This document shows positions 3,341-20,190 of a stretch of 64,000 nucleotides of DNA, one piece after another. The DNA comes from Candidatus Uhrbacteria bacterium (GTDB lineage: Bacteria; Patescibacteriota; Patescibacteriia; UBA9934; GWF2-40-263). Location: the NCBI GenBank assembly GCA_016188495.1, contig JACPHU010000010.1:349-64348 (forward strand), written 5' to 3'. The translations under genes and the position numbers were made by a program. Under the pieces are notes generated by a model. The model searched no databases. It was not told the DNA's origin and saw nothing but the letters and a program-made list of their open reading frames with translations. Every line of letters begins with the position of its first letter. The stretch's first letter is position 1.

Positions 3341-3913
3341 CTATCCCTGGTCGACCTGAGCCAGTGGTCGATATCGACACTCTCCGAACTCTACGCCCGA
3401 CGACTGAGCAAAGGTGTCCAGAAGTTTCCGGTACTCGGTCTTGATCACCGTACGGGAAGACACCCTGTCAAACTCGGTCACCCCATGCAGATAGATCACG
3501 TTGTCTGGTTCCAATTCTGTACCGCCCCACCAGATCTGTATGCGATACATACCGTCGGACATTCCCCCTATCCTTTCGATGCTCTTAGCCCCCATGTTTC
3601 GAAACTGCTTTATGAGTAGAAGTGCACTGTTCGTCATGGGTATACTGAATGAACAGTCCGACGGCGGGGTAATATTGATGCGGAACGAACCATCTAAAGA
3701 CAACGAATCCTCCGCCAAGGGCACAGTTTCCAACTCAACGAGCACTCTATCCTTCAATGACGTAAGCTTCTGGAACTCCACCTGGAATTCGGTCACGACA
3801 GGAGGAACAGTTAACCCTTCCTCTGCGAGTTGGTTAAGATATCCCAACACCGCATCGAAAGAAAATCTAAAACCATCCGCCACGTGATTACGCACACCGA
3901 GCTCTTTGGACAT
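3341..3913 (-). CDS. hypothetical protein (190 aa), first gene of the candidate island, divergent from the rest
   Basis: Long ORF with no recognizable motif; divergently oriented relative to 4091..; downstream terminator present. Confidence 0.5.
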   Translation of the reverse strand: MSKELGVRNHVADGFRFSFDAVLGYLNQLAEEGLTVPPVVTEFQVEFQKLTSLKDRVLVELETVPLAEDSLSLDGSFRINITPPSDCSFSIPMTNSALLLIKQFRNMGAKSIERIGGMSDGMYRIQIWWGGTELEPDNVIYLHGVTEFDRVSSRTVIKTEYRKLLDTFAQSSGVEFGECRYRPLAQVDQG

Positions 3914-4006
3914 GACGTTCTCTTTTTATTAAGGAGTGTTCGTAAATCCGTAGTTTTACTTCCAGGACGGCAGGAAGTTGAAAATATATTACTTTCTTCA
4001 ATTTTT

Positions 4007-4022
4007 GTCAAGTATTCTTGAC
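4007..4022. promoter_or_regulatory. 16-bp perfect palindrome GTCAAG-TATT-CTTGAC in divergent intergenic region (candidate operator / -35 overlap)
   Basis: Seen directly; lies between divergent ORFs 3341..3913(-) and 4091..6073(+); contains TTGAC -35-like hexamer. Confidence 0.35.
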
Positions 4023-4090
4023 TTTTTTACCTTCAAAATTTACACTCACCCCTCGTTCTTTTACAAGTAAAACTGCTTAAGGAGCTAAAA

Positions 4091-6073
4091 ATGGCAAAAA
4101 AAGTTGGACTTAGCAATCGAGACAGACAAACCGCTCTGGTTCACGCGACATTTAATCATGGCAATTCTCTCTCAGGCAACGTAAAAAAAGTTCCTGGAAC
4201 TTTTTCAGATACCACGAGTCTTCAAACACAGTGGTTTCTAGAAAACACACAAACAACGGCCATGAAGGACGCCCTGCTCATACAACAGGTGCTCATGCGT
4301 ATGGTAAGGATGAAAAAAACCCAAAGAAATACCCTGTCAGAACCGGAACTTTTAGAAAAACTGGTAAACCGACTCATCAAAATAGCACGGCCGGAAATTA
4401 TTTCTTATCTGGAAGAAACAGAAAAACATCATCTCTATTTTAATGATTTAAACCAGATGATGTCTGTTTTTTCCTGGATTCAAAAAAAGGTGGGGGAAGA
4501 ACTTGGATATAAAGGTGGGGGAAGACAAATCCCCGGCAGCAACCATAGAGCAAAAGATGATGTCTTTTGGAAAAACGTTTATTCCATGAGCTGCCAGCTC
4601 TTTGGATTTTTCCAAGATCATTGGGGATGCTTCTGCACAGAAAAGGAAGCGGTCCCTATTCAGTCGGCCCAGATAACGATTCGCGCGTTTGAAATTATCT
4701 ACAAACTCATGAGCACTGTGCCTCCCTGCAAAGTACTTCGTCTGGTCCAAAGCGCCCATCAGGCAAGAATAGACTTACAGCAGATAGAACGTATTGCTCT
4801 GAGTCATATCCCCATGCGAATAGACGATTTCATCCAGCTTATGGCTGATAAAATCCTTACGCCAAAAACAAGCATACTCTTCCTCAAGTATCCGGAACTC
4901 ATTGACGCACTCTCTTATGAAGGAATCCGACATCTTTTCAGACGATGGAAAGAATCCGAGAGGAAAACAAATATCCTTGTCTTTGCCCAATCGATCAGAC
5001 AGGAACTGTATCCCGATACGCTTCCAGACGGAATAAAAACGGAGTGGGAGATATTGGAACATCCGCGATTATTTTCATTCCTTCATGCGTTGCACGGAAC
5101 AACACAAGGAGAAATATCCTTTTCTTTTCCTGACCACGCCTACGCACCCGGTCTCTATACACCCAGTAATGCGATGATCCTTCTTCCTAAAACGGTTCCG
5201 ATGCTTGTCGCAAGGCAGGACCAACCCCTGATCCAAGCATCACCTCGCCAAGAAGAAGGCGAGTATGATTACCCTATTCTCGATCTGGATGAAGATGAGA
5301 ATGAATCTGATGCACTGACTCAGATAACGTGTATACAGACCGCAGAAAATTTCTTCTGTGAAGAAGTTTTCTCTCTCTGGACGGAACGAGCGGAAGCCTA
5401 TTCAGCGTCACATGAGAATCCTTGCCTACTCACTTCAAAATCGGAAACCTCTCTTTGGGAAGAATCTGCTGATGTGGAAAATCCCTGGGACGTTGTTATC
5501 TATCTGATCGAAGAAGATCTGAAAGAAAAGCTTGTTGCTTCTGCGACTGAAGATCCTGATCTAGTGGATTTGATGCAAGAAATGCAAGCCGTTCATCGTT
5601 TGCTAAACTTCGCTCGCGCGGGAGATGCTGAGGGAGTCCTCGATTGTTGGGCCTCCTGGATCGATCCCATCCGCGGTCGAATAAAAAAACTCGATGGGCG
5701 ACTTAAACAGACAGAGAAAGAGGTAACGATTTCAACTCTCTTGAAAGAAGAGGTTCTGCCAATTTCTCTGGTGGAGGAGTGTGAAACAGAAGAAATGACC
5801 GTACAGGAAACACCTGCGGTCTCCCTCCAAATACAAGAACCTTCTCCTGTCCAAGAATTGACACCCAGCGTGGAAATCCCTGCTGAAAGTCAACTCGTGA
5901 CACAGACAAGGGAACTCCTTGCTAAGCTACCTGTGGGATCCATGCGCAAACAGCTTAAGAAAAAGCTGGATACGCTCATCGGGGAAGCGACGCAAGGCGA
6001 AGGCGCATCCCTAAAAGCAGCCTTCACACATCTGCAGGGAGAAATCCAAAGCCTGCTTGACGTTATTTCCTAA
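4091..6073 (+). CDS. hypothetical protein (660 aa), acidic C-terminal region, no recognized domain
   Basis: Long uninterrupted ORF directly upstream of the SNF2-MTase gene; C-terminal Glu/Asp-rich low-complexity segment. Confidence 0.55.
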   Translation: MAKKVGLSNRDRQTALVHATFNHGNSLSGNVKKVPGTFSDTTSLQTQWFLENTQTTAMKDALLIQQVLMRMVRMKKTQRNTLSEPELLEKLVNRLIKIARPEIISYLEETEKHHLYFNDLNQMMSVFSWIQKKVGEELGYKGGGRQIPGSNHRAKDDVFWKNVYSMSCQLFGFFQDHWGCFCTEKEAVPIQSAQITIRAFEIIYKLMSTVPPCKVLRLVQSAHQARIDLQQIERIALSHIPMRIDDFIQLMADKILTPKTSILFLKYPELIDALSYEGIRHLFRRWKESERKTNILVFAQSIRQELYPDTLPDGIKTEWEILEHPRLFSFLHALHGTTQGEISFSFPDHAYAPGLYTPSNAMILLPKTVPMLVARQDQPLIQASPRQEEGEYDYPILDLDEDENESDALTQITCIQTAENFFCEEVFSLWTERAEAYSASHENPCLLTSKSETSLWEESADVENPWDVVIYLIEEDLKEKLVASATEDPDLVDLMQEMQAVHRLLNFARAGDAEGVLDCWASWIDPIRGRIKKLDGRLKQTEKEVTISTLLKEEVLPISLVEECETEEMTVQETPAVSLQIQEPSPVQELTPSVEIPAESQLVTQTRELLAKLPVGSMRKQLKKKLDTLIGEATQGEGASLKAAFTHLQGEIQSLLDVIS

Positions 6074-6210: not shown

Positions 6211-9200
6211 ATGTCTATCACCCAAAAAAGGATGCTGAATCTTCTGTCGGGTATGACCGATGGGGAACGCAAATTCGAGTTCTTCAAATATCTCTTTGAA
6301 CGCAATGAACTGACAGAACATGACCTGTATGAACTTCTGGTAAAGTCTATTGAGCGTAATCCGAGCTATTATTTCGAACAGATCACCAAGAACGATCTGC
6401 TCAAATATCTTTGGCACCGATTTCAAGCCTATCCTGAAACGCTCGCCAGAGCACTCGTACGAGTATGTCCAGAACTGTTCTACGGCAACCATGAATGGGT
6501 CACGCGCCTTATTATTCGCCTCCAAAGCGACAAACGCCTGGGAACAGAACTGGGCATGATTACCGTGGCCCCCAAGCAGGGAACAGGCCAAGGATCCAAC
6601 CGACTGACGGTGGCAATCAATGAGAAGCTGATACAATCCATTCCTCGTGACGTACGGGATCTTGATGTGGAATGTCGTATACGGGAACTCTTGTACTGGT
6701 ATTCACGCGACCCGAAACTAGGAGCGGAATATACCCAGGAACAGATCGACAGTGCAAACCCTTATGAAGCACAGGTGTGGAATCTGGCTCGAACGCATCT
6801 GGATCACTACCTCAAAGAATCTTTCCCACAGACCGTATCAAAGATGAATGACCGACTCTTTCCGGCCATGCATGTGCGCTGGTGGCTGGATCGCTCTGCC
6901 GCGCAAACGCGCGTTCTCAACATTGGCGACACTGGAACGTATAAAACCAGTTACTCGGTCCTGGCGATGCGTCAAGCAGAAGCAAAAAAAGTACTGATCT
7001 TTTGTGCGGCTAACGCCAGAGCGAACTGGGAACAGGAACTGAAACTCTACCTACCCCATCTTCGGGCTGTCGGTCGAGTAGAAATCGTACAAAACTCCAG
7101 TCATGTTATTGCCGATAATGCAGAATTCATTATCGTAGCTTACACGACGTTGGTCCATCGTCCCGTCATCCAAATGCTCAAAGAGCAAAAAATCGATGGA
7201 ATTATTTGGGACGAAAGTCATTACGGGAAAAACGTGGTAGGAACCACTCCTGCCAAACGTGCTTTGGGAGCATTGGAAATTATTCAATCCCATGTTCCGT
7301 CTCTTAAAAAAGTGGTTGCCAATTCTGCTACACCTTGGGAAAACAGTCCGGAAGAAATAGCTGCTCTGGCGTGCATATTGCGCCCCGAGCTTTTTCCAAA
7401 CCCTCGAGAATTTCTGCGGTCGGGCGCCTACGCCAGTCCGCGATTCCTGCGAGCCTTATTTGAGACGTGCATCCTGGATATCGGGCTACATGAAGTGCGG
7501 GAACTACCCACGATTGATCCAAAACCTTGGGAAGACCTCTTTAATCCTGTCGCGATCCGGATGACCCCGCCTCAGGCAGTCCTCTATCAGCAGCTTCTGC
7601 ACCAAATCCCTGATCAAACAGATGAGGAAGATTCTCTCAAAATCATCAATGGTGTGGATGGGAGCCAGAAAGTCCGTTATCTCTTATATGCCTGCGATAT
7701 GCCTCATGTGCTCGCGCGCGTGGCAGAATACGATTGGCCCGCAGAGATCGAAGACGCGTTTGAAGACTGGAGCTTCTCGGCCAAGCTCGTGTGGCTAAAA
7801 GACCAGATCGATCAAAACATCGGAACAGCCAAAATCGTGGTGGCGTCTGGAATGTATGTTTCTGGCATCACCAAACCGATCAAAGATGATGAAGAAATCC
7901 TCTGGATCGGACGTCAGTTACGGGAATGGTATGGAGAAAAAACAGTCTTGATTTTAGATGGGGATGTACGCATTGGCGAGGATCGCAACGATCTGATCAA
8001 ACAATGGCGAACGCAAGAGTCTGCCCGAATCCTGCTGGTCTCCATGAAGACCTGTCCGGATTCGATTAATCTGTCTGTCACTATTGAAGACGATCCCACA
8101 CTCAAAGAACTCCTCGTCATCGGGTTTGCTCTGGATTGGAAACCTTGGAAACAATTCCTCGGGCGATTCTGGCGTGAGGGATTACGCATTCCTATGCGTT
8201 ACGTCTGTCCTGTGCTGCAAGGCACGATCGACGAAGCCCGCATGGAACTGAATCGCCGAAAATGGAAGTCACTCACGCGTTTCCGTTCTCGAGTTCCTCC
8301 CACAGACGAGGAATGGACGAACTATTCAAAATCAGACAGCGCCACGCTTTCAGACCTTATGCGCAGCCCAAAAGAATGGGTGAGCATCGTCAATAACGAT
8401 GTCCGAGGCATCGGCGAGGAAGCCGCGCGCTGTTATCTGGATAAAGAAAACGGTCTCTCCACTCAGGGAGAACAGTTCGCCAGAAGCTTCCTTGCCGCTC
8501 AAGAACACATGGCCTCCGGTCACATCGCCCGCCATATGCGCTACGTGTTGCAGCAAGGCCTCATTCCTGGGGGGATCCTCACGGACTCCACGCGGATTTT
8601 GGACGCGGGATGCGGACCAGCAACACTAGCGCGAACACTCCAGATGCCCGTCACAGGTGTAGATCTCAATCCTTGGATGATCACTGTGGCGCGCGAAGCA
8701 AATCCTGAGCTCACCCTCAATTGTCAGGTTGGAACCGTGAGCCAACTTCCACCTTCTTGGACAGGACGATTTCGTTTAAGTGTCTGCTCCATGGTTCTTG
8801 ATTGGACACAATTGGGAACGATCCAAGATTCACAAAGAATCAAAGCTCTTATGGAATTGATTCGAGTCACAGATCCTCATGGACTCATTTGGTTAACGTT
8901 CAATGAAAAAGCTTTAGACGAGTCACTGTTTAAAACATGGACCCAGGCTCTGAAAAAGAGCGGTTGTGAACTCTCACCACTCACGGGTTTCGTCGTCCCT
9001 GTAGAACAGGCGGGAAAAAAGAAACCAGACTTCGCTTTCTGGTCGATCGTCTTCACTGCCGCTGGACATCATCTGACTCCGTTTGACCCGTTATCTTTCC
9101 GATTCCGGTTTGAACTTGAACAGATGAAATACAAGCAGGCAAAGACAGGTTATTCTTCTAAGTCCTCAAAGGATCTAGAACCGACCTGTTATGAACGGTT

Positions 9201-9396
9201 CGTCATCAAAGATCCTGGAGCCTATGAGACATCAGACACCGTGGGCGTCCGACAAACACTCCTTACAGAACTCACACGATGGAGCAAGGTCGAAGGAAAA
9301 CCCATCAATATCTCCCAACAGGTGACAGACTTGTTTGGAGCCGATTGGAGAATCCTTCAACAGCTTCAAAAACGAGGAATTATCTCCTTCACCTGA
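6211..9396 (+). CDS. SNF2-family helicase fused to class-I SAM-dependent methyltransferase domain (1061 aa)
   Basis: Helicase motifs: I 'NIGDTGTYKT', Ia 'LIFCAANARANWEQE' (SNF2 '...NW..E'), II 'IIWDESHYGKN' (DEAH-x-x-KN), III 'SATPWENSPEEIAALACIL', helicase-C 'LLVSMKTCPDSINLSV'. MTase motifs near aa 795-930: 'ILDAGCGPATLA', post-I 'VTGVDLNPWMITVA', 'FRLSVCSMVLDW', 'LIRVTDPHGLIWLT'. Confidence 0.75.
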   Translation: MSITQKRMLNLLSGMTDGERKFEFFKYLFERNELTEHDLYELLVKSIERNPSYYFEQITKNDLLKYLWHRFQAYPETLARALVRVCPELFYGNHEWVTRLIIRLQSDKRLGTELGMITVAPKQGTGQGSNRLTVAINEKLIQSIPRDVRDLDVECRIRELLYWYSRDPKLGAEYTQEQIDSANPYEAQVWNLARTHLDHYLKESFPQTVSKMNDRLFPAMHVRWWLDRSAAQTRVLNIGDTGTYKTSYSVLAMRQAEAKKVLIFCAANARANWEQELKLYLPHLRAVGRVEIVQNSSHVIADNAEFIIVAYTTLVHRPVIQMLKEQKIDGIIWDESHYGKNVVGTTPAKRALGALEIIQSHVPSLKKVVANSATPWENSPEEIAALACILRPELFPNPREFLRSGAYASPRFLRALFETCILDIGLHEVRELPTIDPKPWEDLFNPVAIRMTPPQAVLYQQLLHQIPDQTDEEDSLKIINGVDGSQKVRYLLYACDMPHVLARVAEYDWPAEIEDAFEDWSFSAKLVWLKDQIDQNIGTAKIVVASGMYVSGITKPIKDDEEILWIGRQLREWYGEKTVLILDGDVRIGEDRNDLIKQWRTQESARILLVSMKTCPDSINLSVTIEDDPTLKELLVIGFALDWKPWKQFLGRFWREGLRIPMRYVCPVLQGTIDEARMELNRRKWKSLTRFRSRVPPTDEEWTNYSKSDSATLSDLMRSPKEWVSIVNNDVRGIGEEAARCYLDKENGLSTQGEQFARSFLAAQEHMASGHIARHMRYVLQQGLIPGGILTDSTRILDAGCGPATLARTLQMPVTGVDLNPWMITVAREANPELTLNCQVGTVSQLPPSWTGRFRLSVCSMVLDWTQLGTIQDSQRIKALMELIRVTDPHGLIWLTFNEKALDESLFKTWTQALKKSGCELSPLTGFVVPVEQAGKKKPDFAFWSIVFTAAGHHLTPFDPLSFRFRFELEQMKYKQAKTGYSSKSSKDLEPTCYERFVIKDPGAYETSDTVGVRQTLLTELTRWSKVEGKPINISQQVTDLFGADWRILQQLQKRGIISFT

Positions 9397-9484
9397 GATG
9401 CGCACGCATCTCTTTTTTATTGACCAGATTCAGCAAAATTGTTAGGATTTTTTCTTACAACTTTTGTAAGAAAAGGAGGAGATC

Positions 9485-10084
9485 ATGTCTTTATCCAAAT
9501 CGCTCTTTCAACTAACCGTCCAGGAACTGGCCAAGATTCTGCAAGGACAGGACCTAGAACTCCCTGACGGGAGAGTGATAAAGATCCTTAAGACGGATTA
9601 CTACACTCGGACAGAAAACGAGAAGGGAAGTTACAAACCCATGCTCAACATGGAACCGGGAAGCGTCTATGTTGCGCGTATCATGAATGCTTTTTTGTTT
9701 TTGATTGTGGCTCTGGAAGGAACCGACTCTGGAGCCTGTGTGCGAGTGACGAGCATCCAAACTCAAAACGGAATCATCAAAGGACCGGGGCGCGTAGGAA
9801 CATGGATAGGCTTCAATATGCATCAACAGACAGGTCGTCTAATGGAACGTGAAGGGAAACCTTTGTTACTCAGTATGGAGGGAGTTCTGACACCGGAAAT
9901 TCTTCCTGTTCAGAAGACTGTGCTCATCCCCATAACAGACAGCGTTCTCTCAAAATACACGGATCATCTTGCGATCCACTTTATGTCAGAACGTTTGGAT
10001 GAAGCCTACGAAGAGTTTCTGGAACGGATAAAGAGGGAATGGATTACGGAAGACGAATTAAAAAAACGTCTAGGGATCAGTTAA
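9485..10084 (+). CDS. hypothetical protein (199 aa) in island
   Basis: ORF with AGGAGG RBS upstream (GAAAAGGAGGAGATCATG); no recognized motif. Confidence 0.55.
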   Translation: MSLSKSLFQLTVQELAKILQGQDLELPDGRVIKILKTDYYTRTENEKGSYKPMLNMEPGSVYVARIMNAFLFLIVALEGTDSGACVRVTSIQTQNGIIKGPGRVGTWIGFNMHQQTGRLMEREGKPLLLSMEGVLTPEILPVQKTVLIPITDSVLSKYTDHLAIHFMSERLDEAYEEFLERIKREWITEDELKKRLGIS

Positions 10085-10100: not shown

Positions 10101-10472
10101 ATGACACTTGAGCAGACGCTCATGGCTAAAATCCAGGAATCATTTGAATACTGGAATCGGTCTGGAAGAAAAGGATTCTTCTCTACTTTTTTGGAAAAAC
10201 AAGAACCAGGAATTCTGGAATTGCTAGAAGAACTTCCGAGAATCCTGACAAAGCTGGATCGAAAAATACTCAAAGAGCTGAAAGCAAAACCTGCTCAGCG
10301 GCCTCTGTGCGATGCCATCCTAGCCCTCTACATGCCTCAAATGACTCTGCTCTATCAGCAAAAAAAGGCCAAAAAGACTTTCGAAGAATTTCTCGATCAT
10401 CTCAGACGAGAATGCCCCACAGCCGAAGCCCTGGAAAACTATCTGAAAAAATTATCTCCTCAACAGCTATAA
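10101..10472 (+). CDS. hypothetical protein (123 aa) in island
   Basis: ORF 16 nt after previous gene with GGAGGA RBS; no recognized motif. Confidence 0.5.
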   Translation: MTLEQTLMAKIQESFEYWNRSGRKGFFSTFLEKQEPGILELLEELPRILTKLDRKILKELKAKPAQRPLCDAILALYMPQMTLLYQQKKAKKTFEEFLDHLRRECPTAEALENYLKKLSPQQL

Positions 10473-10590: not shown

Positions 10591-11652
10591 ATGTCTCTCA
10601 AAATGATTGAAATTCCTGGTATTTCGGTCATGAAACAAGGTGAACAGTATCTTCTCGTCTTCGTCGTACCGGCTCAGGTACTAGTCGAAATTGGGATCAC
10701 CCTGCGTTTTAATGAGCATCCCCTGGGAGTCAATAGGGGACTTACCGTTCATCGAGCAAAAGATATTCTTGCCCACATGAAGGCAGGAAAATCCAATAAC
10801 CTGATGCGTGATCCCATCCAAGGATGTCTCTATGTAGGAGACGGGCATGAATGGATCTTTGACGAAAAAAACCGTGTCCTCAGAGGCGAGGTAGAAACGG
10901 ATCCGGACAATCGTTTGGATGCTTGTTTCCTCGTCATCGATGACGGACAGCATCGATTTGCCGCATTGGAAATGTTATCCGGTGAGAATCGCCAACACTG
11001 GAGTTTCACGGTCATCGCCGGAATGAACATGTCTGTTGAAGAACGGACCGAGCTGTTCATGCAGGGTGAAAAAAGACAAAAGGTCTCTCCGCGTTTACTT
11101 TTGCAGATGATGGATGCCAACGACACCTTTGCAAATGAGTCGACGGCAACGGCTTACCGCATGGCAAAGGCTCTCAACGAAGTAAATGGATCACCCCTTA
11201 AAGGAAAGATCTACTTCGAACAGGGTCCTCGAGTTCCCAGCGGTATGGTCAGCGTGTCTTCCTTGCTTGGCCAACTTAAATACTGCGTGGGGAAAAATTC
11301 GCGCCTTATTCCCTATACCAGCGAGCAGCAGCGACAAGCTCTCCTGAATCTGTTCATCGCTGCATCGCGTCAGTGGCCCCAGGCTTGGGGACAAGAAGAT
11401 AAGACGTTGGGGAAACATATAGGTTACCTGACGCTTATCACTCTCCTTGCCCGCAGCGGCAATCTGCATAGTCTCTTGAAGGAAGACCTATCCCTAGACT
11501 CTTTCAAGAAAGCTATGGAATTTGCAAAAGGATTTCGATGGGAACAGGCCGGCGTCAAGGACGGATCAATCAATCATAACCGTCTGGCCGTCTTGTTGGA
11601 TGATCATATCGGACAGGCAATCGCCGCCTCGCAAGCTGATCTGAAAAAGTGA
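10591..11652 (+). CDS. DGQHR-domain protein (DndB-like, ParB-nuclease superfamily)
   Basis: Signature 'LVIDDGQHRFAALEML' (DGQHR motif) preceded by 'GEQYLLVFVVPAQVL', as in DndB/DpdB-type DGQHR proteins. Confidence 0.7.
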   Translation: MSLKMIEIPGISVMKQGEQYLLVFVVPAQVLVEIGITLRFNEHPLGVNRGLTVHRAKDILAHMKAGKSNNLMRDPIQGCLYVGDGHEWIFDEKNRVLRGEVETDPDNRLDACFLVIDDGQHRFAALEMLSGENRQHWSFTVIAGMNMSVEERTELFMQGEKRQKVSPRLLLQMMDANDTFANESTATAYRMAKALNEVNGSPLKGKIYFEQGPRVPSGMVSVSSLLGQLKYCVGKNSRLIPYTSEQQRQALLNLFIAASRQWPQAWGQEDKTLGKHIGYLTLITLLARSGNLHSLLKEDLSLDSFKKAMEFAKGFRWEQAGVKDGSINHNRLAVLLDDHIGQAIAASQADLKK

Positions 11653-11660
11653 TCGTGTAA

Positions 11661-11695
11661 CGACCGTACACAAATCTGTGTACGGTTTTTTATTT
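11661..11695 (+). terminator. rho-independent terminator ending island operon
   Basis: ACCGTACACAAATCTGTGTACGGTTTTTTATTT. Confidence 0.65.
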
Positions 11696-13198: not shown

Positions 13199-14050
13199 AT
13201 GCTCTTTGGCGCTCATGTAAGTTCTGCGGGAGGATTATGGAACGCTCCAAAAAATGCCGCGGAAATCGGATGTGAGGTGTTGCAGCTGTTTTCCCGTCCT
13301 CCCCAGGGAGGAAAACCAAAACCTATTACAAAAAAAGTCGCTGAACAATTTAAAGAAAAAATGAAGAAATACTCTATCCAACAAGCTTATATTCATGCGC
13401 CTTATTTTATTAATCTAGCTTCAAGTAATGAACGTATCCGTCATAGTTCTGTGGTTATTCTGCGCGAAGAACTTGAACGTGGCTCTCTTTTAGGATGCAA
13501 AGCCATGATGTTCCATCCAGGATCTGCCAAAGATGTGGGTCAAGAAGAAGGGGAATCTCTTGTGATAGAAGGCCTTAATACGATCTTGGATGGTTACGAG
13601 GGCTCTTGCCAACTCTTAATCGAGATTTCAGCGGGTGCAGGTATGGTAATGGGGGATACATTTGAGGAACTTGCACGATTTATCCACCAAACCAAACAGG
13701 CCGAAAAAATCGGAATTTGCTTTGATACCCAGCATGCCTTTGCCAGCGGTTACGATATCCGTACACAAGAGGGACTGGATCGCGTATTAGCACAATTTGA
13801 TGAAAAAATAGGGTTAAAACGTCTTATTGCAAGTCACTGCAACGACTCGAAAGTAGATCTTGGAACCCACAAAGACCGTCACGAACATCTAGGAGAAGGC
13901 TTTATGGGACTAGAAACTTTTAAACAGTTTATCCACCATCCAAAAATTCAGCATTTAGATCTCATTTTGGAAACTCCTATAGACGAGCAGCGCAAAAAAG
14001 AAATGGAACTCTTGAAATCATTCCGTTTAGAAATTCAAAAATACGTATGA
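13199..14050 (+). CDS. nfo: endonuclease IV (AP endonuclease, TIM-barrel)
   Basis: N-terminus 'MLFGAHVSSAGGL...' matches Nfo 'IGAHVSAAGGL'; His/Glu metal ligands distributed as in Nfo. Confidence 0.85.
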   Translation: MLFGAHVSSAGGLWNAPKNAAEIGCEVLQLFSRPPQGGKPKPITKKVAEQFKEKMKKYSIQQAYIHAPYFINLASSNERIRHSSVVILREELERGSLLGCKAMMFHPGSAKDVGQEEGESLVIEGLNTILDGYEGSCQLLIEISAGAGMVMGDTFEELARFIHQTKQAEKIGICFDTQHAFASGYDIRTQEGLDRVLAQFDEKIGLKRLIASHCNDSKVDLGTHKDRHEHLGEGFMGLETFKQFIHHPKIQHLDLILETPIDEQRKKEMELLKSFRLEIQKYV

Positions 14051-15083: not shown

Positions 15084-15143
15084 CTATCCACAATCGATCA
15101 ACTAAATCTCGTATGACCTGACCGCTTGCCCACATGTGGATAA
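15084..15143. promoter_or_regulatory. DnaA boxes upstream of dnaA (CTATCCACA at 15084-15092; perfect TGTGGATAA at 15135-15143)
   Basis: Direct match to TTATCCACA consensus (8/9 and 9/9 reverse). Confidence 0.6.
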
Positions 15144-15208
15144 TTAGTCTAAACTACAGACCACGTGTAACTTTTGAGAAGGAAACTATCTCATTCATAC
15201 TCGATGCT

Positions 15209-16615
15209 ATGAATACTAATGAACTTTGGCAAGCCGTTCTCGGAGAACTCGAACTTTCTTTAAGTAAGGCAAACTTTACCACGTGGTTCAAAAACACTTT
15301 CATTTCTGATGTAGAAGAACACGCCATTACCATTGGAGTTCCAAACATGTTCACCAAGGCTTGGTTAGAAAAAAAATATACGAAGGAAATTCTTCGCTCT
15401 CTCCAAGAACTGACAAAAAATTCTATTAAACAATTGTCTTATCGAGTGGAATCACGCCCCATCAATCCACAAGGGCTACCGCTCTTTGAAAAGGAACAAC
15501 GCCAAGAACCATCAGTGGCTCCTTCGCATCAACAATCTTCTTACTACCAACCTCAACAGGCAACCGAGGTAAAAGAGATACGTACAGGTGAATTTTCTTT
15601 AAATGGAAAGTATTGCTTTGAAACATTCATCGTAGGAAAACAAAATGAACTCGCCCACGCCGCAGCACAGGCTGTTTGTGCCCAACCAGGAGGTATCTAC
15701 AATCCTTTATTTATCTACGGTGGTGTAGGACTGGGAAAAACACATATTCTTCAAGCAATCGGGAACGAACTCATCCGAAAAAACGCGAGTACAAAAATTC
15801 TCTACGTAACATGCGAGCGATTTACCAATGATTTTATTGGAGCATTGCGTTCAAATAGAATTGTAGAATTTAAAAATAGATACAGAACGGTCGATGTCTT
15901 GCTTGTAGACGATATCCAGTTCATTACAGGAAAAGAAGGAACTCAGGAGGAATTTTTTCACACATTCAATCAGCTTTACCAAAATAATAAGCAAATCGTT
16001 ATTTCCTCCGACCGTCCTCCAAAAGCGATCCCAGCTCTTGAAGACCGTCTTGTTTCACGCTTTGAATGCGGTATGTTGGCCGACGTCGGTTCACCAGATT
16101 TTGAAACGCGCTGCGCCATCTTAGACACAAAATGTCTGGAAAAGCAGTATTCTCTAGAACGAGAAATTTTGCATCATATCGCCACCGTCGTTCAAACAAA
16201 CGTCCGCGAACTTGAAGGTGCTCTGAATAAAGTCATTGCCTTCCATCAGTTTAAAAATACGCGCCCAACACTTGAATCAGTAAAGCCTATTCTTTCAAGT
16301 TTTCAACCAACATCTACTAGAAAAAACGTGACGCCAAAACAACTGATCGTCACGGTTGCCAACTACTTCGATATCCATATGGAGGATTTGCTTGGAAAAA
16401 GCCGCCAAAAACGATTGGCCTTTCCACGCCAAATTGTGATGTACATCATGCGAGAAGAAATGAAAGCAAGTTATCCCTCTATTGGATTAGAACTTGGTGG
16501 AAGAGATCACACAACAGCCATGCATGCCTACGACAAGATCACAACCTGTCTTTTGGAAGATGAAAAACTTCAACACGACATCGAACTGATCAAACAAAAG
16601 TTATACGCACTGTAA
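15209..16615 (+). CDS. dnaA: chromosomal replication initiator DnaA (start moved to internal ATG MNTNELWQAVLGELE...)
   Basis: N-terminus 'MNTNELWQAVLGELELSLSKANFTTWF', AAA+ Walker A 'GGVGLGKTHIL', Walker B 'LLVDDIQF', C-terminal DNA-binding 'HTTAMHAYDKI'; ORF-track start 15134 overlaps a DnaA box. Confidence 0.9.
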   Translation: MNTNELWQAVLGELELSLSKANFTTWFKNTFISDVEEHAITIGVPNMFTKAWLEKKYTKEILRSLQELTKNSIKQLSYRVESRPINPQGLPLFEKEQRQEPSVAPSHQQSSYYQPQQATEVKEIRTGEFSLNGKYCFETFIVGKQNELAHAAAQAVCAQPGGIYNPLFIYGGVGLGKTHILQAIGNELIRKNASTKILYVTCERFTNDFIGALRSNRIVEFKNRYRTVDVLLVDDIQFITGKEGTQEEFFHTFNQLYQNNKQIVISSDRPPKAIPALEDRLVSRFECGMLADVGSPDFETRCAILDTKCLEKQYSLEREILHHIATVVQTNVRELEGALNKVIAFHQFKNTRPTLESVKPILSSFQPTSTRKNVTPKQLIVTVANYFDIHMEDLLGKSRQKRLAFPRQIVMYIMREEMKASYPSIGLELGGRDHTTAMHAYDKITTCLLEDEKLQHDIELIKQKLYAL

Positions 16616-16902
16616 ATCCACAGAGTCTTCCACAGATTATCCTAATAATATTTAAGAGGATAAACCTCGGTATAACGTTGTTCATAAGAGGGTGAACGAT
16701 CTGAATAAGTTTAGGAGAACATTCTGAAGTCATATCTATCCGCTTTCTATTCACGCTGTTCCCCTCTAATAGTACACAAATCCACACCCTTTTTTAAAAC
16801 TGATTTTAGCTAAAAAAAGGACTTATCCCTGCTGTCCACACCCCTTATTACTACTTCTTTATTTATTATCTATTAATTTATTAATAAAGAACTCAGGTTG
16901 AT
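16613..16902. other. candidate oriC between dnaA and dnaN (weak DnaA-box-like nonamers plus AT-rich DUE)
   Basis: AAATCCACA at 16613 and about 16775; AT-rich 'TTATTACTACTTCTTTATTTATTATCTATTAATTTATTAATAAAG' at about 16846-16890. Confidence 0.45.
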
Positions 16903-18039
16903 ATGAAGCTTTCCTGCACAAGAGATAACCTCCATCAAGGATTAAGCATTACAAGTCATCTCATGACAAAGAATGTAAATCTTCCTATCCTTCAAAATGT
17001 TCTTGTAAAAGCAGAAGGGGGATCTATTCGATTCATTGCAACAAATCTTGAAATGGCGGTTAACTGCTTTGTAAGAGGAAAAGTAGAAGAACCTGGAGAG
17101 TATACGATTCCATCCAAACTTTTTTTTGATTACGTGTCATTACTTCCAAATGAAACGATCCGTATTCAAGCTGATGATCAAACCGTTCATATTGAATGCG
17201 GAACACATAAAACAAAAATTAATGGATTAAGTTCCTCCGAGTTTCCGCTTGTTCCTCGTGTAGAAGGAGGGACCTCTTTCCAGATACCTGTTGAAAGCTT
17301 CAAAAAGGCTCTCTCGCAAGTTTTATTCGCTGTTGCGACCAACGAGTCTCGTCCCGAGCTTACAGGGGTTTCATTCCAATTTTTTACTCTTGAGGGAGAA
17401 GGACGTTTAACCCTTGCTTCCACCGACTCTTATCGATTAGCAGAAGCAACGATTCCAGTTATTTCTGAAGTAGGAGAAATTCTTTCGTTAGTGGTTCCCT
17501 CTAAAACCCTTGCGGAAGTGAATCGTATTTTATCGGTGTTCAAAGATGATGTGGAATTACCTTCCGCGGTCACACTTACTCTTTCCCATTCTCAGGTTGT
17601 TTTCACGTATGGGTCTGTAGAATTAATCTCTCGTACGATTGATGAGCAATATCCAGACTATAAGCAAATTATCCCTACTCAATTTCAAACACGAGCCTTG
17701 ATTGATAGAGACGATTTCATTAAGGCAGTAAAAACAGCCAGTCTCTTTTCTCGCGTAGGAATTTCTGACGTGACATTAGGATTTGATGCTGAACAAAAAC
17801 AGATCTCTGTCAGTGCAACCGATGCCACTCGTGGTCAAAATACAACACAATGCGGAGCTGATATTTCAGGAGTGACTAATCATGTTACGGTGAACTATCG
17901 ATATCTCTTAGATGGTCTACAAGCGATCAATCAGGATCAGGTTCTTTTTGAAATGATCGATCCATCCAACCCTTGTCTTCTGACTCCTGAGGGAAAAACC
18001 GAAAGTTACCGTTATATTGTGATGCCTATCAAACAATAA
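16903..18039 (+). CDS. dnaN: DNA polymerase III beta sliding clamp
   Basis: 378 aa, three-domain clamp; 'MKLSCTRDNLHQGLSITSHLMTKNVNLPILQNVLVKAEGGSIRFIATNLEMAV' typical DnaN N-terminus; follows dnaA. Confidence 0.9.
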   Translation: MKLSCTRDNLHQGLSITSHLMTKNVNLPILQNVLVKAEGGSIRFIATNLEMAVNCFVRGKVEEPGEYTIPSKLFFDYVSLLPNETIRIQADDQTVHIECGTHKTKINGLSSSEFPLVPRVEGGTSFQIPVESFKKALSQVLFAVATNESRPELTGVSFQFFTLEGEGRLTLASTDSYRLAEATIPVISEVGEILSLVVPSKTLAEVNRILSVFKDDVELPSAVTLTLSHSQVVFTYGSVELISRTIDEQYPDYKQIIPTQFQTRALIDRDDFIKAVKTASLFSRVGISDVTLGFDAEQKQISVSATDATRGQNTTQCGADISGVTNHVTVNYRYLLDGLQAINQDQVLFEMIDPSNPCLLTPEGKTESYRYIVMPIKQ

Positions 18040-18046
18040 GGAATTT

Positions 18047-18093
18047 AATATTCCCTGAGCATAGCGACCAGTGGAAGCGAAGTCGAAGGGGTA
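18047..18093 (+). repeat. Family-2 short dispersed repeat, copy b
   Basis: AATATTCCCTGAGCATAGCGACCAGTGGAAGCGAAGTCGAAGGGGTA. Confidence 0.7.
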
Positions 18094-18102
18094 TTATTCA
18101 AA

Positions 18103-18134
18103 CAAAAACCGAGAGATAGACTCTCGGTTTTTGT
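18103..18134 (+). terminator. rho-independent terminator after dnaN
   Basis: AAAAACCGAGAGATAGACTCTCGGTTTTTGTT. Confidence 0.7.
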
Positions 18135-18190
18135 TATCTTATGAACAAGAGTATTGTAAATAAACACTCTTTTGCCTTATTGGATTCCTT

Positions 18191-18736
18191 ATGCCCTTAC
18201 TCCTTCATCAACCAAAAGAAGTTTGTTTGAAGATAGAACATTTTTGGGATGGGTCTTTAAATATGGATGAACGCCTTTGGGCAGACGTTTCGTTGAGTCA
18301 AAATAAACAAGGGATTGTCATCACAGCTCTTTCGCCTATCCTCGCTGATCAAAATATTCCTCAATTTCCTCTCGGAACACGAGTAGATGGTCTTTGGAAT
18401 CATGATGTGGTAGAAGTTTTTTTTGTGGGTCCTGGACATCAATATCTTGAAATTGAGCTAGGAGCCGGAGGTCACTTTCTTGTGCTTGGCTTTGATTCTA
18501 TCCGTCATTGTTCAGATACCTTTGAATCTCTGGATCCACATCTGGTTTTTGATCGGACAGATGGGCAAAAGTGGAAGAGTGAAGTATTGATTCCTTACAA
18601 AATCATTCCTGAAAATATCAGAGCTCTTAATGCGTTCGCTATTTTAAATCATCAATTTTTAGCCTACGCCCCAGTTCCAGGAGATAAACCGGATTTTCAT
18701 CAACCAGACCGTTTCCCTTTTTTTACTCTCCAATAA
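18191..18736 (+). CDS. hypothetical protein (181 aa)
   Basis: ORF only; weak resemblance to carbohydrate-binding (CBM9-like) folds not verifiable. Confidence 0.45.
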   Translation: MPLLLHQPKEVCLKIEHFWDGSLNMDERLWADVSLSQNKQGIVITALSPILADQNIPQFPLGTRVDGLWNHDVVEVFFVGPGHQYLEIELGAGGHFLVLGFDSIRHCSDTFESLDPHLVFDRTDGQKWKSEVLIPYKIIPENIRALNAFAILNHQFLAYAPVPGDKPDFHQPDRFPFFTLQ

Positions 18737-18784
18737 AAAAATCCAGCCTAGAGGGGCTGGATGTTCCGTGTCGTAGAGTGTCTA

Positions 18785-19639
18785 TTACTTTTCCTGCTTC
18801 ACCAGATCGTCGTCGATGCGCCGGAAGGCCTTCTCTGCTCTTCTCTGGAATTCCCCCTTGAGTGCTTCCAGTAGCGCCTGGAAGATGCGTCTTATGGGAT
18901 CATTGAGAATGGTCCAGGTTAAGGACCAGGGCCACCAGGTCATCCACATAAGAATTCGTTTCTTGTGGTTTTCCATGGATGGAATGAGAGCATTTTTGAA
19001 CTCTGGACCGGCTAACAGAGTGCGAAACTCTGTCTTGATTTCTTTCGGAAGGGTAGATTCACAGACGTATTTGATCTTTTCCGAATATTCACGATGGAAG
19101 ATTTGATTCCATTCCATCTGTTCCTCGGAGATAGGGGGTTCAGGATTACCCCTCTCTCTTGTTCCCTGAACGGAAAAGTTTGACCTCTTGCTGTCTTTTT
19201 CATATTCCGGATGTTTACGAGCAAAACGCTCCAGCGTTCGTTCGTAGGTTTCCGGACAGAAATCGAGTAGGAAGGCTTCCTTTAATTCTTCGGGGATCGT
19301 TGTGCCATACTCACGGTTCAGTTTCAGGAATACGCTCTTCTTTTTTTCGTAACGTTTCCATTCATCTTTGGTGAAGAATCCCCATTTTCCGTACAGGGCC
19401 CAGAAACAACCACCGATGAAGTAACCGATAACGTAAAGAATGGTCACGACCGGATGTTCGACCACTGCACCGATGATATCAATCCCTGCCACAAACTGCA
19501 GGGCAATGAGCGTACCGATCACGGTGATCGTAGCGATGCCGGACCTCTCTAGTTCGATGAGAGCGAATAGTCCGAGAATAACCACAGCACTCAGAATGAG
19601 CGCCCACAGAGGAACCCCGAACACCAGTGCAAGAAACAT
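18785..19639 (-). CDS. hypothetical membrane protein (284 aa, N-terminal TM helices)
   Basis: Three hydrophobic helices at N-terminus followed by charged soluble domain. Confidence 0.55.
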   Translation of the reverse strand: MFLALVFGVPLWALILSAVVILGLFALIELERSGIATITVIGTLIALQFVAGIDIIGAVVEHPVVTILYVIGYFIGGCFWALYGKWGFFTKDEWKRYEKKKSVFLKLNREYGTTIPEELKEAFLLDFCPETYERTLERFARKHPEYEKDSKRSNFSVQGTRERGNPEPPISEEQMEWNQIFHREYSEKIKYVCESTLPKEIKTEFRTLLAGPEFKNALIPSMENHKKRILMWMTWWPWSLTWTILNDPIRRIFQALLEALKGEFQRRAEKAFRRIDDDLVKQEK

Positions 19640-19779
19640 GTCTTTTTCCCCTTTCTTTTCCTTCTTCTTGTTTTTTTACCTTCTGTCCTGCGACAACGCA
19701 GTGAAGGAGAATAGGTAAAAATTCATTTTTTGTCAAGTGATTTGTTTAAAAACACCCATGTGTGGGTGTTTCGTCTTTA

Positions 19780-20190
19780 TCAATCTCCTTCAGTTGGAGG
19801 GGTTCCGTTTCCCCATTCATCATCATCCCACGAGAAGGGGACGGCCCAACCAACCGTTTCTGTCCCATCGGTGATTTCTGTCAGGGAAGTGAAGAGGTTC
19901 GGATCCCAGATCAGGGTCTTTGATTCGAACCAGAAATTTTCTTTTTCCAGAGAAACATCGATCTGATCTTTTTCAAAAATGTCCCCGGTTTCAAAGAACT
20001 CATCGTCCAGGACCAAACAGTCGCTGAAGCCGTTGGATCCAGGAGAATATCTAGTCTCTCCATTAACGGAGATCGTAAGGTTTTCTACACAGGTATCGAC
20101 AGAGATGACGATACCTGTGGGTTGTCCTTTCTGACAGCCTGCCATGCTTAAGAGAAGTAACAGAAAGAACTTCAAAGAACGTGTCTGCAT
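19780..20190 (-). CDS. lipoprotein, hypothetical (start at MQTRSLKFFLLLLLSMAGCQ)
   Basis: Signal peptide with lipobox 'SMAGC'; AGGGAG RBS upstream of this ATG. Confidence 0.6.
   Translation of the reverse strand: MQTRSLKFFLLLLLSMAGCQKGQPTGIVISVDTCVENLTISVNGETRYSPGSNGFSDCLVLDDEFFETGDIFEKDQIDVSLEKENFWFESKTLIWDPNLFTSLTEITDGTETVGWAVPFSWDDDEWGNGTPPTEGD

What the first reader, a model, noticed from the sequence alone, without database searches (positions are those of the whole stretch)
6211..9396. Single polypeptide combining SNF2 ATPase with a Methyltransf_11/25-type (small-molecule/RNA-style) SAM methyltransferase rather than a DNA N6/N4/C5 MTase
The helicase core has textbook SNF2 motifs (Ia '...ANARANWEQE', II 'DESHYGKN', III 'SATPWENSPEEIAAL'). 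The C-terminal MTase motifs (LDAGCGPATLA; VTGVDLNPWMI; FRLSVCSMVLDW; VTDPHGLIWLT) are those of UbiE/Methyltransf_11-like enzymes and lack the (D/N/S)PP(Y/F) motif of amino-MTases. Known helicase-MTase fusions (type ISP R-M such as LlaGI, type IIG) use gamma-class DNA amino-MTases. An SNF2 translocase delivering a class-I MTase is unusual; the methyl acceptor (DNA base, RNA, protein or a modified-base intermediate) is unknown.
Basis: partly seen in the sequence, partly recalled or inferred. Interest (0 to 1): 0.8.

Follow-up and report, generated by a model that had tools for sequence, protein, structure and literature searches.

The report
DNA motor–methylase with glycosylase partner
A gene in an ultra-small (CPR) bacterium fuses a DNA-tracking motor to an RNA-type methyl-adding enzyme. 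It almost always sits next to a relative of the repair enzyme that cuts methylated purines out of DNA, and this undescribed gene set is shared with tiny archaea and probably writes and then removes or reads an unusual methyl mark on DNA.

Summary
Window 6211..9396 (+) is one uninterrupted 1061-aa ORF with an intact SNF2 ATPase and a C-terminal class I SAM methyltransferase (Methyltransf_11/25). It is not a misassembly: 27 full-length homologues (36-100% identity), all from Patescibacteria, are conserved from end to end. The MTase lacks the amino-MTase motif IV. Its closest characterised relatives by fold and profile are rRNA base methylases (nucleomethylin/Rrp8, m1A; Bud23, m7G), and no DNA MTase appears among the matches.

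The next gene (9485..10084) encodes a divergent methylpurine-DNA glycosylase (AAG/MPG) homologue. It follows the fusion in 17 of 17 close loci, and again in distant fusions from CPR bacteria and DPANN archaea. An exhaustive search finds about 130 clusters of SNF2–MTase fusions. They usually come with fast-evolving arrays of small DNA-binding modules.

My best reading (confidence about 0.4) is that an ATP-driven methylase writes a methylpurine on DNA and the AAG-like partner excises or reads it, in a conflict or toxin–antidote-type system. No such system is described in the defence-system library or the papers I searched. The catalytic Glu of AAG is not conserved in the partner, and the methyl acceptor is untested.

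The parts
4091..6073 (+). Accessory 660-aa protein (family c4), encoded directly upstream of the fusion. Its function is unknown.
   Evidence: Homologues occupy the same slot in 7 syntenic Uhrbacteria-clade loci. It has no Pfam, PADLOC or NCBIfam hit and no internal repeats. In other clades this operon slot holds unrelated, fast-diverging and often duplicated proteins, many of them arrays of HTH/NUMOD1/HNH_repeat modules.
6211..6852 (+). N-terminal domain of the fusion (aa 1-214), of unknown fold.
   Evidence: It is conserved in the CPR subfamily, with invariant F71, P75, L78, A79 and others. It is found only in the CPR-type subfamilies of the superfamily. It has no PDB or Pfam match.
6853..8310 (+). 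SNF2 ATPase motor: N-lobe aa 215-440, insertion aa 441-520, C-lobe aa 521-700.
   Evidence: Pfam SNF2-rel_dom. The family profile matches Sulfolobus SSO1653 (1z63) over positions 250-680 with E 1e-9, and also Mot1, INO80, Fft3 and ISWI. Motif residues are invariant: GDTGTYKT (D240, T241, K245), DE[SC]HY (D334, E335), SATPWEN (A373, T374, P375) and Q648/R652/R655.
8311..8565 (+). Helical linker (aa 701-785) that packs onto the MTase domain.
   Evidence: It is conserved (E701, E736, A757 invariant). The AF2 model of aa 700-1061 is one compact body (pLDDT 86.7, pTM 0.86) with helices preceding the Rossmann fold.
8566..9060 (+). Class I SAM-dependent methyltransferase domain (aa 786-950), Rrp8/nucleomethylin-like.
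9061..9393 (+). C-terminal domain of the fusion (aa 951-1061), specific to the close CPR family.
   Evidence: Conserved W1046, R1047 and G1056. AF2 predicts a beta-alpha-beta-alpha-beta unit after a disordered loop. It is detected only in the close family among the representatives.
9395..9448 (+). Terminator-like hairpin (9395-9412) followed by a promoter-like site (9420-9448), between the fusion and the partner gene.
   Evidence: Consensus scans only. The total number of such sites in the region is close to the shuffled expectation.
9485..9889 (+). MPG/AAG-like (methylpurine-DNA glycosylase fold) domain of the 199-aa partner protein (aa 1-135).
9926..10081 (+). C-terminal helical module of about 50 aa in the partner (aa 148-199), HNH_repeat-like.
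   Evidence: An HMM of this module also hits the ~125-aa small proteins, the HNH_repeat proteins (c13) and the HTH/INT_rpt array proteins in related loci.
10101..10472 (+). Small 123-aa protein that shares the partner's C-terminal module.
   Evidence: blastp of W_123 against W_199 gives E 4e-6 over the C-terminal ~95 aa. Equivalents of about 125 aa flank the fusion in most loci. The gap to the partner gene is only 16 bp.
10591..11652 (+). DGQHR-domain (DndB/DpdB-like) protein, an optional neighbour in the same terminator-bounded unit.
   Evidence: TIGR03187 gives 61.2 bits against a cutoff of 58.85. It is present only in W, L006 and L010. A strong terminator-like hairpin lies at 11662-11687.

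Best explanation
The ORF is the core enzyme of a multi-gene, DNA-acting 'write-and-excise (or write-and-read)' module. The proposal has four parts. (1) The SNF2 domain binds and translocates on double-stranded DNA using ATP. (2) The fused Rrp8/Bud23-like class I methyltransferase uses SAM to methylate a base. The acceptor is most likely a purine ring nitrogen (N1- or N3-adenine, or N7-guanine), not the exocyclic N6/N4 or C5 positions used by classical DNA methylases. (3) The co-encoded AAG/MPG-like protein flips that methylpurine out of the helix and excises it, leaving abasic sites; in versions without a catalytic acid it would only bind the base. (4) The accessory protein or proteins choose where this happens. 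In many relatives these are arrays of HTH/HNH_repeat DNA-binding modules; in this window the slot holds the 660-aa protein and the 123-aa protein. The biological role is most likely a genetic-conflict function: damaging invading DNA, or a toxin–antidote pair in which the glycosylase repairs the cell's own DNA. What is shown: the domain identities, the intact ATPase and SAM motifs, the conserved fusion, and the conserved linkage to the AAG-like gene across two domains of life. What is inferred: DNA as the methyl acceptor, the atom methylated, glycosylase catalysis, and the conflict role.
Against: There is no direct evidence that DNA is the methyl acceptor, and the closest characterised MTases act on rRNA. 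The AAG catalytic Glu125 position is not conserved in the partners: Asp38 in the window protein, G/W in archaeal ones, and 4 of 21 have no acid at either the 123- or the 125-equivalent. The partner may therefore be a reader and not an enzyme. About half of the distant fusions have no detectable AAG-like neighbour. The operon encodes no nuclease or AP lyase. It matches no model in PADLOC. In the close clade it is syntenic between housekeeping genes and does not sit in an obvious defence island. A terminator-like hairpin separates the fusion from the partner in the window. How self DNA would be spared is unknown.
Confidence: 0.4

Rival explanations
1. This is a restriction–modification-like epigenetic immune system with base-excision restriction. 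The SNF2–MTase, guided by the DNA-binding accessory protein, marks the cell's own DNA. The AAG-like protein is the restriction component and excises unmethylated purines at the same sites in foreign DNA, as R.PabI does.
For: The three-part layout (variable DNA-binding protein, motor plus methylase, base-excision-fold protein) mirrors the S/M/R logic. Restriction glycosylases blocked by methylation exist (PabI family; PMC4357717, PMC10273834). The accessory DNA-binding arrays are variable and duplicated, as specificity subunits are.
Against: AAG/MPG enzymes are known to prefer alkylated or deaminated purines and excise normal purines only very slowly (family knowledge). The catalytic Glu is not conserved, which argues against a powerful glycosylase for undamaged bases. 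The MTase lacks the N6/N4 motif, and ring-N methyl marks are poor stable self-marks: 3-meA and 1-meA block replication (PMC8307549). The partner has the AAG fold, not the HALFPIPE fold.
Confidence: 0.15
2. The methyltransferase acts on RNA or protein, for example on nascent RNA or on an RNA-polymerase or nucleoid protein, while the SNF2 motor rides on DNA or RNAP (RapA-like). The AAG-like protein is a repurposed nucleic-acid-binding module.
Against: Two of the three recognisable activities (SNF2, AAG fold) and the HTH/HNH_repeat arrays are DNA-directed. The partner scores above the Pfam gathering threshold for the DNA glycosylase family, and AAG itself is the best fold match. The rpoD adjacency is explained by the dnaG–rpoD operon in L001 and may be ancestral synteny.
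Confidence: 0.15
3. This is a housekeeping alkylation-repair or chromosome-maintenance complex of reduced-genome organisms. The AAG-like glycosylase is the working enzyme, the SNF2 motor gives it access to DNA or helps it scan, and the MTase-like domain is a SAM sensor or a regulatory module.
Against: Distribution is patchy: 17 of 185,579 species-level genomes for the close family. The accessory proteins evolve fast and are duplicated, which is typical of conflict systems. SAM-binding residues are strictly conserved together with a conserved substrate-side surface. The glycosylase's catalytic acid is the less conserved element.
Confidence: 0.1

Closest known systems
DNMT5 (fungal/protist SNF2-fused cytosine-5 maintenance methyltransferase)
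   Same: One polypeptide combines a DNA methyltransferase with an SNF2 ATPase, and ATP hydrolysis is coupled to methylation independently of nucleosomes (bioRxiv 10.1101/2020.01.05.895227). This is the best precedent for how an SNF2–MTase fusion can work.
   Different: DNMT5 has a C5-cytosine MTase placed N-terminal to the motor, is eukaryotic, and has no glycosylase partner. Here the MTase is an Rrp8/Methyltransf_11-type domain placed C-terminal to the motor, in CPR bacteria and DPANN archaea, in an operon with an AAG-like protein.
Nucleomethylin / Rrp8 (rRNA m1A methyltransferase, Pfam Methyltransf_8) and Bud23 (rRNA m7G)
   Different: Those enzymes are stand-alone eukaryotic ribosome-biogenesis factors acting on rRNA. 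The window protein does not reach Pfam Methyltransf_8, and only distant family members touch it weakly. Sequence identity is about 17%.
Alkyladenine/methylpurine DNA glycosylase (AAG/MPG, Pfam PF02245)
   Same: The partner protein shares the fold and signature segments (IxExxxY, PGxxY, CVLxR, GPGxxxxALGI). Some members pass Pfam's gathering score.
   Different: The partner is shorter: the H136 loop and the 189-212 loop are deleted. The catalytic Glu125 column is not conserved. In the CPR subfamily it carries an extra HNH_repeat-like C-terminal module. It is genetically tied to an SNF2–MTase, whereas AAG/MPG is a stand-alone repair gene.
PabI-family base-excision restriction–modification systems
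   Same: A methyltransferase is paired with a DNA glycosylase as a genetic unit in prokaryotic conflict (PMC4357717, PMC10273834).
   Different: R.PabI has the HALFPIPE fold and excises unmethylated adenine, and its MTase is a classical N6-adenine enzyme. It has no motor and no AAG fold.
Helicase/SNF2-associated methylation-based defence systems (Type ISP/IIG R-M, DISARM DrmD+DrmMI/II, BREX, MADS)
   Same: An ATP-dependent motor is combined with a SAM-dependent methylase in a multi-gene locus.
   Different: Those systems use gamma-class N6 or C5 DNA MTases and nuclease or PLD effectors. Here PADLOC gives only a 25-bit hit to the SAM core of mad2, and NCBIfam DrmD scores 16.9 bits against a cutoff of 950. 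No nuclease domain was found.

Membership tests
SNF2 family ATPase (Pfam PF00176) | Profile match above the curated cutoff. | tested here: met
   SNF2-rel_dom scores 27.7 bits against a cutoff of 24.9, at aa 252-403. The family profile matches the SSO1653 SNF2 core (1z63) over positions 250-680 with E 1e-9.
SNF2 family ATPase (Pfam PF00176) | Catalytic helicase motifs I (Walker A Lys-Thr), II (DExH), III and VI (Q..R..R.GQ arginine fingers). | tested here: met
   GDTGTYKT (K245, T246), DESH (D334, E335), SATPWEN, and Q648/R652/R655 are invariant in 26 sequences. DE and Q/R/R are also invariant across the broad superfamily. Motif I deviates from GxGKT (it reads GTYKT) but keeps K-T.
Class I SAM methyltransferase, Methyltransf_11/25 | Profile match above the cutoff, glycine-rich motif I, an acidic residue at the end of beta-2, and a Rossmann-like fold. 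| tested here: met
Rrp8 / nucleomethylin family (Pfam PF05148 Methyltransf_8) | Profile match above the cutoff, and rRNA m1A activity. | tested here: inconclusive
DNA amino-methyltransferases (N6-A / N4-C; alpha, beta and gamma classes) | Catalytic motif IV (D/N/S)PP(Y/F/W), and a match to N6_Mtase, N6_N4_Mtase, MethyltransfD12 or Eco57I profiles. | tested here: not met
   No such motif occurs in any of the 27 close members. No such Pfam family appears at E up to 0.1. None appears among the PDB profile or fold matches.
DNA cytosine-5 methyltransferases | A match to the PF00145 profile (PCQ and ENV motifs). | tested here: not met
   There is no Pfam hit and no such structure among the fold matches.
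AAG/MPG methylpurine-DNA glycosylase (PF02245), for the partner at 9485..10084 | Profile match and the AAG fold. | tested here: met
AAG/MPG methylpurine-DNA glycosylase (PF02245), for the partner at 9485..10084 | A catalytic general base (Glu125 in human AAG) and the stacking Tyr127. | tested here: inconclusive
   The Tyr127 equivalent is kept as Y or F. The Glu125 column is variable: Asp38 in the window protein; E, D, Q, K, R, V, S, G or W elsewhere. Four of 21 partners have no acid at either the 123- or the 125-equivalent.
Type ISP / Type IIG restriction–modification enzymes | A nuclease domain (Mrr or PD-(D/E)XK), a gamma-class N6 MTase and a target-recognition domain in one polypeptide. 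| tested here: not met
   No nuclease, N6 MTase or TRD profile appears in Pfam, NCBIfam or PADLOC.
DISARM | DrmA and DrmB, plus DrmD (SNF2), plus DrmMI or DrmMII. | tested here: not met
   PADLOC gives no Drm hits for the six island proteins. NCBIfam DrmD_b scores 16.9 bits against a cutoff of 950.
Dnd / Dpd DNA-modification systems (because of the DGQHR neighbour) | DndACDE or DpdA/DpdC modification genes together with DndB/DpdB. | tested here: not met
   Only the DGQHR domain is present (TIGR03187, 61.2 bits). The DpdB equivalog scores 24.6 bits against a cutoff of 300. No other dnd or dpd genes occur in the island. The DGQHR gene is present in only 3 of the loci.
PabI-type base-excision R-M | A HALFPIPE-fold glycosylase and a cognate N6-adenine MTase. 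| tested here: not met
   The partner has the AAG fold, and the MTase lacks the amino-MTase motif.

The most novel reading that the evidence does not exclude
CPR bacteria and DPANN archaea share a previously unrecognised kind of DNA-targeting system. An ATP-driven SNF2 motor carries an Rrp8-like methylase that deliberately installs 'lesion-type' methylpurines (m1A, m3A or m7G) on DNA, at places chosen by programmable arrays of small DNA-binding modules. A dedicated AAG-like enzyme then converts these marks into abasic sites. This would be enzymatic alkylation followed by base excision, used as a weapon against invading DNA or as a reversible non-canonical epigenetic mark. It would be the first enzyme known to write such bases into DNA on purpose.
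Probability: 0.3. Interest if true: 0.92.

Novelty: categorically new. Interest (0 to 1): 0.8.

Why it matters
All known dedicated DNA methylases make m6A, m4C or 5mC. Ring-nitrogen methylpurines in DNA are known only as chemical damage. A conserved operon pairs a motor-driven, rRNA-type base methylase with a homologue of the enzyme that removes methylpurines. That pairing suggests cells may make such 'damage' on purpose, which would add a new chemistry to DNA modification and to immunity or epigenetics.

The system is confined to the poorly understood ultra-small CPR and DPANN lineages. It is shared between the two domains, so it also bears on gene exchange and on conflict biology in these symbionts. 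The associated arrays of small DNA-binding modules could be a new modular DNA-recognition principle. Even if the acceptor proves to be RNA or protein, an SNF2-coupled non-DNA methylase with an AAG-fold partner would be unprecedented. The hypothesis can be tested directly with recombinant proteins and LC-MS.

Tried and rejected
1. Misassembly or frame break: rejected, because there are 27 full-length homologues with a conserved linker.
3. Known defence system: PADLOC gave only a 25-bit hit to the SAM core of mad2, which is a predicted N6-MTase in MADS. The NCBIfam hits to DrmD, BioC and pilus_reg_Snf2 are far below their cutoffs.
4. Phage or virus origin: INPHARED phages match only the helicase half. 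IMG/VR gave nothing for the CPR family and one SNF2-only hit for the archaeal class.
5. A single conserved upstream 'third subunit': rejected. The c4, c5, c46 and c42 families are not related by hhalign or phmmer. The window's 660-aa protein has no repeats and no HTH or HNH_repeat signal.
The archaeal-class alignment was used in its place.
8. Literature: five searches combining SNF2, methyltransferase, glycosylase, MPG/AAG, CPR, DPANN and 7-methylguanine found no description of this operon. The Dnd reappraisal paper and the base-excision restriction review do not mention it.
9. Membership in Dnd or Dpd through the DGQHR neighbour: rejected.
Full report
**1. The observation.** Window 6211..9396 (+) is a single ORF of 1061 codons with an ATG start and no internal stop. 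Pfam finds SNF2-rel_dom (aa 252-403; 27.7 bits, cutoff 24.9), Methyltransf_11 (aa 797-894; 36.7 bits, cutoff 21.2) and Methyltransf_25.

**2. The fusion is real and conserved.** A search of 5.8 billion proteins returned 27 clusters. All are 1013-1077 aa except one partial, and they cover the full query at 36-100% identity. Where sources give names, they say Candidatus Uhrbacteria.

The alignment of 26 members is conserved from end to end, including the segment between the two enzymatic domains. The following residues are invariant:
- D240, T241, K245 (motif I, GDTGTYKT)
- D334, E335 (DExH)
- A373, T374, P375 (motif III)
- Q648, R652, R655 (motif VI)
- D798, C801, G802 (SAM motif I)
- D818, N820, M823 (post-I)

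A scan of one genome per species found 17 loci, all in Patescibacteria-type MAGs: Uhrbacteria, Parcubacteria group and Andersenbacteria. Some TPA records carry doubtful 'Gammaproteobacteria' labels.

**3. What kind of methyltransferase it is.** The family profile searched against PDB sequences matches only SNF2 remodeller cores (SSO1653, Mot1, INO80, Fft3, ISWI) and small class I MTases. It matches no DNA MTase.

Foldseek separates the class I MTases poorly by E-value. Even so, nucleomethylin has the highest TM-score (TMt 0.69), with Bud23 next at 0.63-0.66. A profile of the MT domain from 21 diverse superfamily members hits nucleomethylin by sequence at E 6e-13, over the longest aligned stretch, and Bud23 at 3e-6. 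Two distant members touch Pfam Methyltransf_8, the Rrp8 family. Yeast Rrp8, the nucleomethylin homologue, makes m1A645 in 25S rRNA (PMC6085284).

The amino-MTase motif IV is absent from all 27 close members. It is not a DNA amino- or C5-methylase.

**4. The neighbours hold the key clue.** The window is a bacterial chromosome near oriC (dnaA at 15134.., dnaN at 16903..; GC-skew minimum at about 18-20 kb). The ORF lies in a co-directional block between H+-PPase and trigger factor. The block consists of:
- a 660-aa unknown protein (4091..6073)
- the fusion
- a 199-aa protein (9485..10084)
- a 123-aa protein (10101..10472)
- a DGQHR-domain protein (10591..11652)

 Clustering the neighbours of all loci shows that the ~200-aa protein follows the fusion in every close-family locus that has downstream sequence, 17 of 17. 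The flanking housekeeping genes differ between clades.

This partner is a divergent methylpurine-DNA glycosylase homologue:
- Pfam PF02245 hits 10 of 15 orthologues, best E 4.7e-11, and two exceed the gathering score.
- hhalign to human AAG gives 89.7% probability.

The partner family is as narrowly distributed as the fusion, with 19 clusters.

**5. The pairing is ancient and crosses domains.** An exhaustive HMM search of 1.84 billion representatives found 157 proteins at E 1e-30 or better. Of the top 147, about 129 share the SNF2-lobe to MT order, in size classes of about 800, 1100, 1300 and 1500-2250 aa. Pfam confirms SNF2-rel_dom + Helicase_C + Methyltransf_11. Named members are CPR (Roizmanbacteria) and DPANN archaea (Aenigmarchaeota).

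Several very distant fusions are again followed directly by a PF02245 / AAG-like gene:
- L022: a 1566-aa fusion
- L024
- L026: a minimal archaeal form, 855 aa, on a 1.1-Mb contig
- L028
- L029 and L030

In L033 and L034 the AAG-like gene lies upstream of the fusion, and in L039 it is convergent. Linkage that persists while gene order varies, across bacteria and archaea, is strong evidence of functional coupling. About half of the distant fusions have no detectable AAG-like neighbour.

**6. The third component.** The gene upstream of the fusion often overlaps its start, which suggests translational coupling (L021, L023, L026, L028, L031, L036). These proteins fall into several mutually unrelated or rapidly diverging families and are frequently duplicated within a locus.

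Where Pfam recognises anything, they are arrays of small DNA-binding modules: HTH_23/28/17, Sigma70_r4, NUMOD1 and HNH_repeat. One archaeal fusion has HNH_repeat fused in. The C-terminal ~50 aa of the CPR partner is a related helical module. It recurs in the ~125-aa small proteins and in these arrays. The window's own 660-aa protein shows none of these signals, so I leave its function open.

**7. Mechanism.**
- Shown: a DNA-motor domain with intact ATPase motifs; a SAM-binding, Rrp8-like MTase; and an obligate AAG-fold partner.
- Inferred: the motor delivers the methylase along DNA. The methylase writes a methylpurine, probably on a ring nitrogen, as its nearest relatives do in rRNA and as the partner's family would recognise. 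The AAG-like protein then excises or reads it, and the accessory DNA-binding proteins set the targets.

3-meA and 1-meA block replication (PMC8307549). Such a pair could therefore be a two-step weapon against invading DNA, or a toxin–antidote arrangement.

The main caveats are these:
- The acceptor is untested, and the closest MTases act on RNA.
- AAG's catalytic Glu125 is not conserved. It is Asp38 in the window protein and G/W in archaeal partners, which keep the Glu123 equivalent. Four of 21 partners have no acid at either position. A non-catalytic reader role is therefore possible.
- The operon encodes no nuclease.
- It matches no PADLOC model.
- In the close clade it is syntenic among housekeeping genes.

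I put about 0.4 on write-and-excise/read on DNA, 0.15 on a PabI-like R-M logic, 0.15 on an RNA or protein substrate, and 0.1 on a repair or maintenance complex.

**8. Comparison with what is known.**
- The best functional analogue for the fusion is DNMT5, in which SNF2 ATP hydrolysis is coupled to DNA methylation (bioRxiv 10.1101/2020.01.05.895227). DNMT5 is a eukaryotic C5 methylase.
- PabI systems pair an MTase with a glycosylase (PMC4357717, PMC10273834), but they use a HALFPIPE glycosylase and an N6 MTase.
- DISARM, BREX, MADS and Type ISP combine motors with canonical DNA MTases and nucleases. None of their defining components is met here.
- Five literature searches found no description of this operon.

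**9. Verdict.** The context makes the finding more interesting than reported: a conserved SNF2–Rrp8-like-MTase / AAG-like gene pair, with a variable large accessory protein (a DNA-binding array in many relatives) in the adjacent slot, is shared by CPR bacteria and DPANN archaea and has no described counterpart. Interest 0.8. I rate the novelty as categorically new in composition, with the function still to be demonstrated.

Noticed in passing
window 15134..18039 and about 18000-20000: dnaA and dnaN lie here, and the cumulative GC-skew minimum falls at about 18-20 kb. The window therefore spans the probable replication origin, and the operon lies about 6-10 kb from it.
   Followed up: partly
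window 10591..11652: A DGQHR-domain (DndB/DpdB-like) protein lies inside the same terminator-bounded unit (terminator-like hairpin at 11662-11687), with no dnd or dpd genes nearby. It is present only in W, L006 and L010, so it is an optional add-on of unknown role.
   Followed up: partly
window 13199..14050; L017:14493-15344 (-): An Nfo-type AP endonuclease (PF01261) lies two genes downstream of the operon in the window and in syntenic L010. It also lies close by in the distant, differently arranged locus L017. This could be a functional link to abasic-site processing, or residual synteny.
   Followed up: partly
L010:8624-9892; L001:5950-7233: A sigma-70 (rpoD-like) gene lies directly upstream of the fusion in L010 and near it in L001, where it belongs to a dnaG–rpoD pair. 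This is probably ancestral synteny, but a link to transcription is not excluded.
   Followed up: partly
L015:3234-4373: SAM synthetase (MetK) lies directly upstream of the fusion in one locus.
   Followed up: no
L020:6048-7787 and 8105-9154: In this MAG the fusion is split into two ORFs. The cause is a frameshift, a pseudogene or an assembly error.
   Followed up: no
P0200 (Aenigmarchaeota, 1381 aa): This SNF2–MTase has the HNH_repeat (PF18780) module fused into the same polypeptide. That ties the module, which is otherwise found on neighbouring proteins, to the system.
   Followed up: no
L038:7530-8216: A 1736-aa fusion is followed by a SET-domain + GrpB protein where other loci have the AAG-like gene.
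   Followed up: no
L040:2996-4027; L041:4684-5715: In the ~1000-1200-aa fusion class without an AAG-like neighbour, a conserved 343-aa protein with no Pfam match follows the fusion, ahead of an 840-aa HTH array. It could be an alternative partner.
   Followed up: no
window 9395..9448: A terminator-like hairpin with a T-run lies immediately after the fusion's stop codon, followed by a promoter-like site before the partner gene. The two genes may be transcribed partly independently.
   Followed up: no
L008, L010, L013, L016, L018, L020 (record titles): These TPA MAG records are labelled 'uncultured Gammaproteobacteria', and L012 and L015 are labelled 'Saccharibacteria'. All of them carry this CPR-type gene set, so the labels look unreliable.
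   Followed up: no
window 3341..3913 (-): A 190-aa ORF is transcribed divergently from the operon. It has no homologue in any related locus and no family hit. A promoter-like pair lies at about 3983-4046.
   Followed up: no
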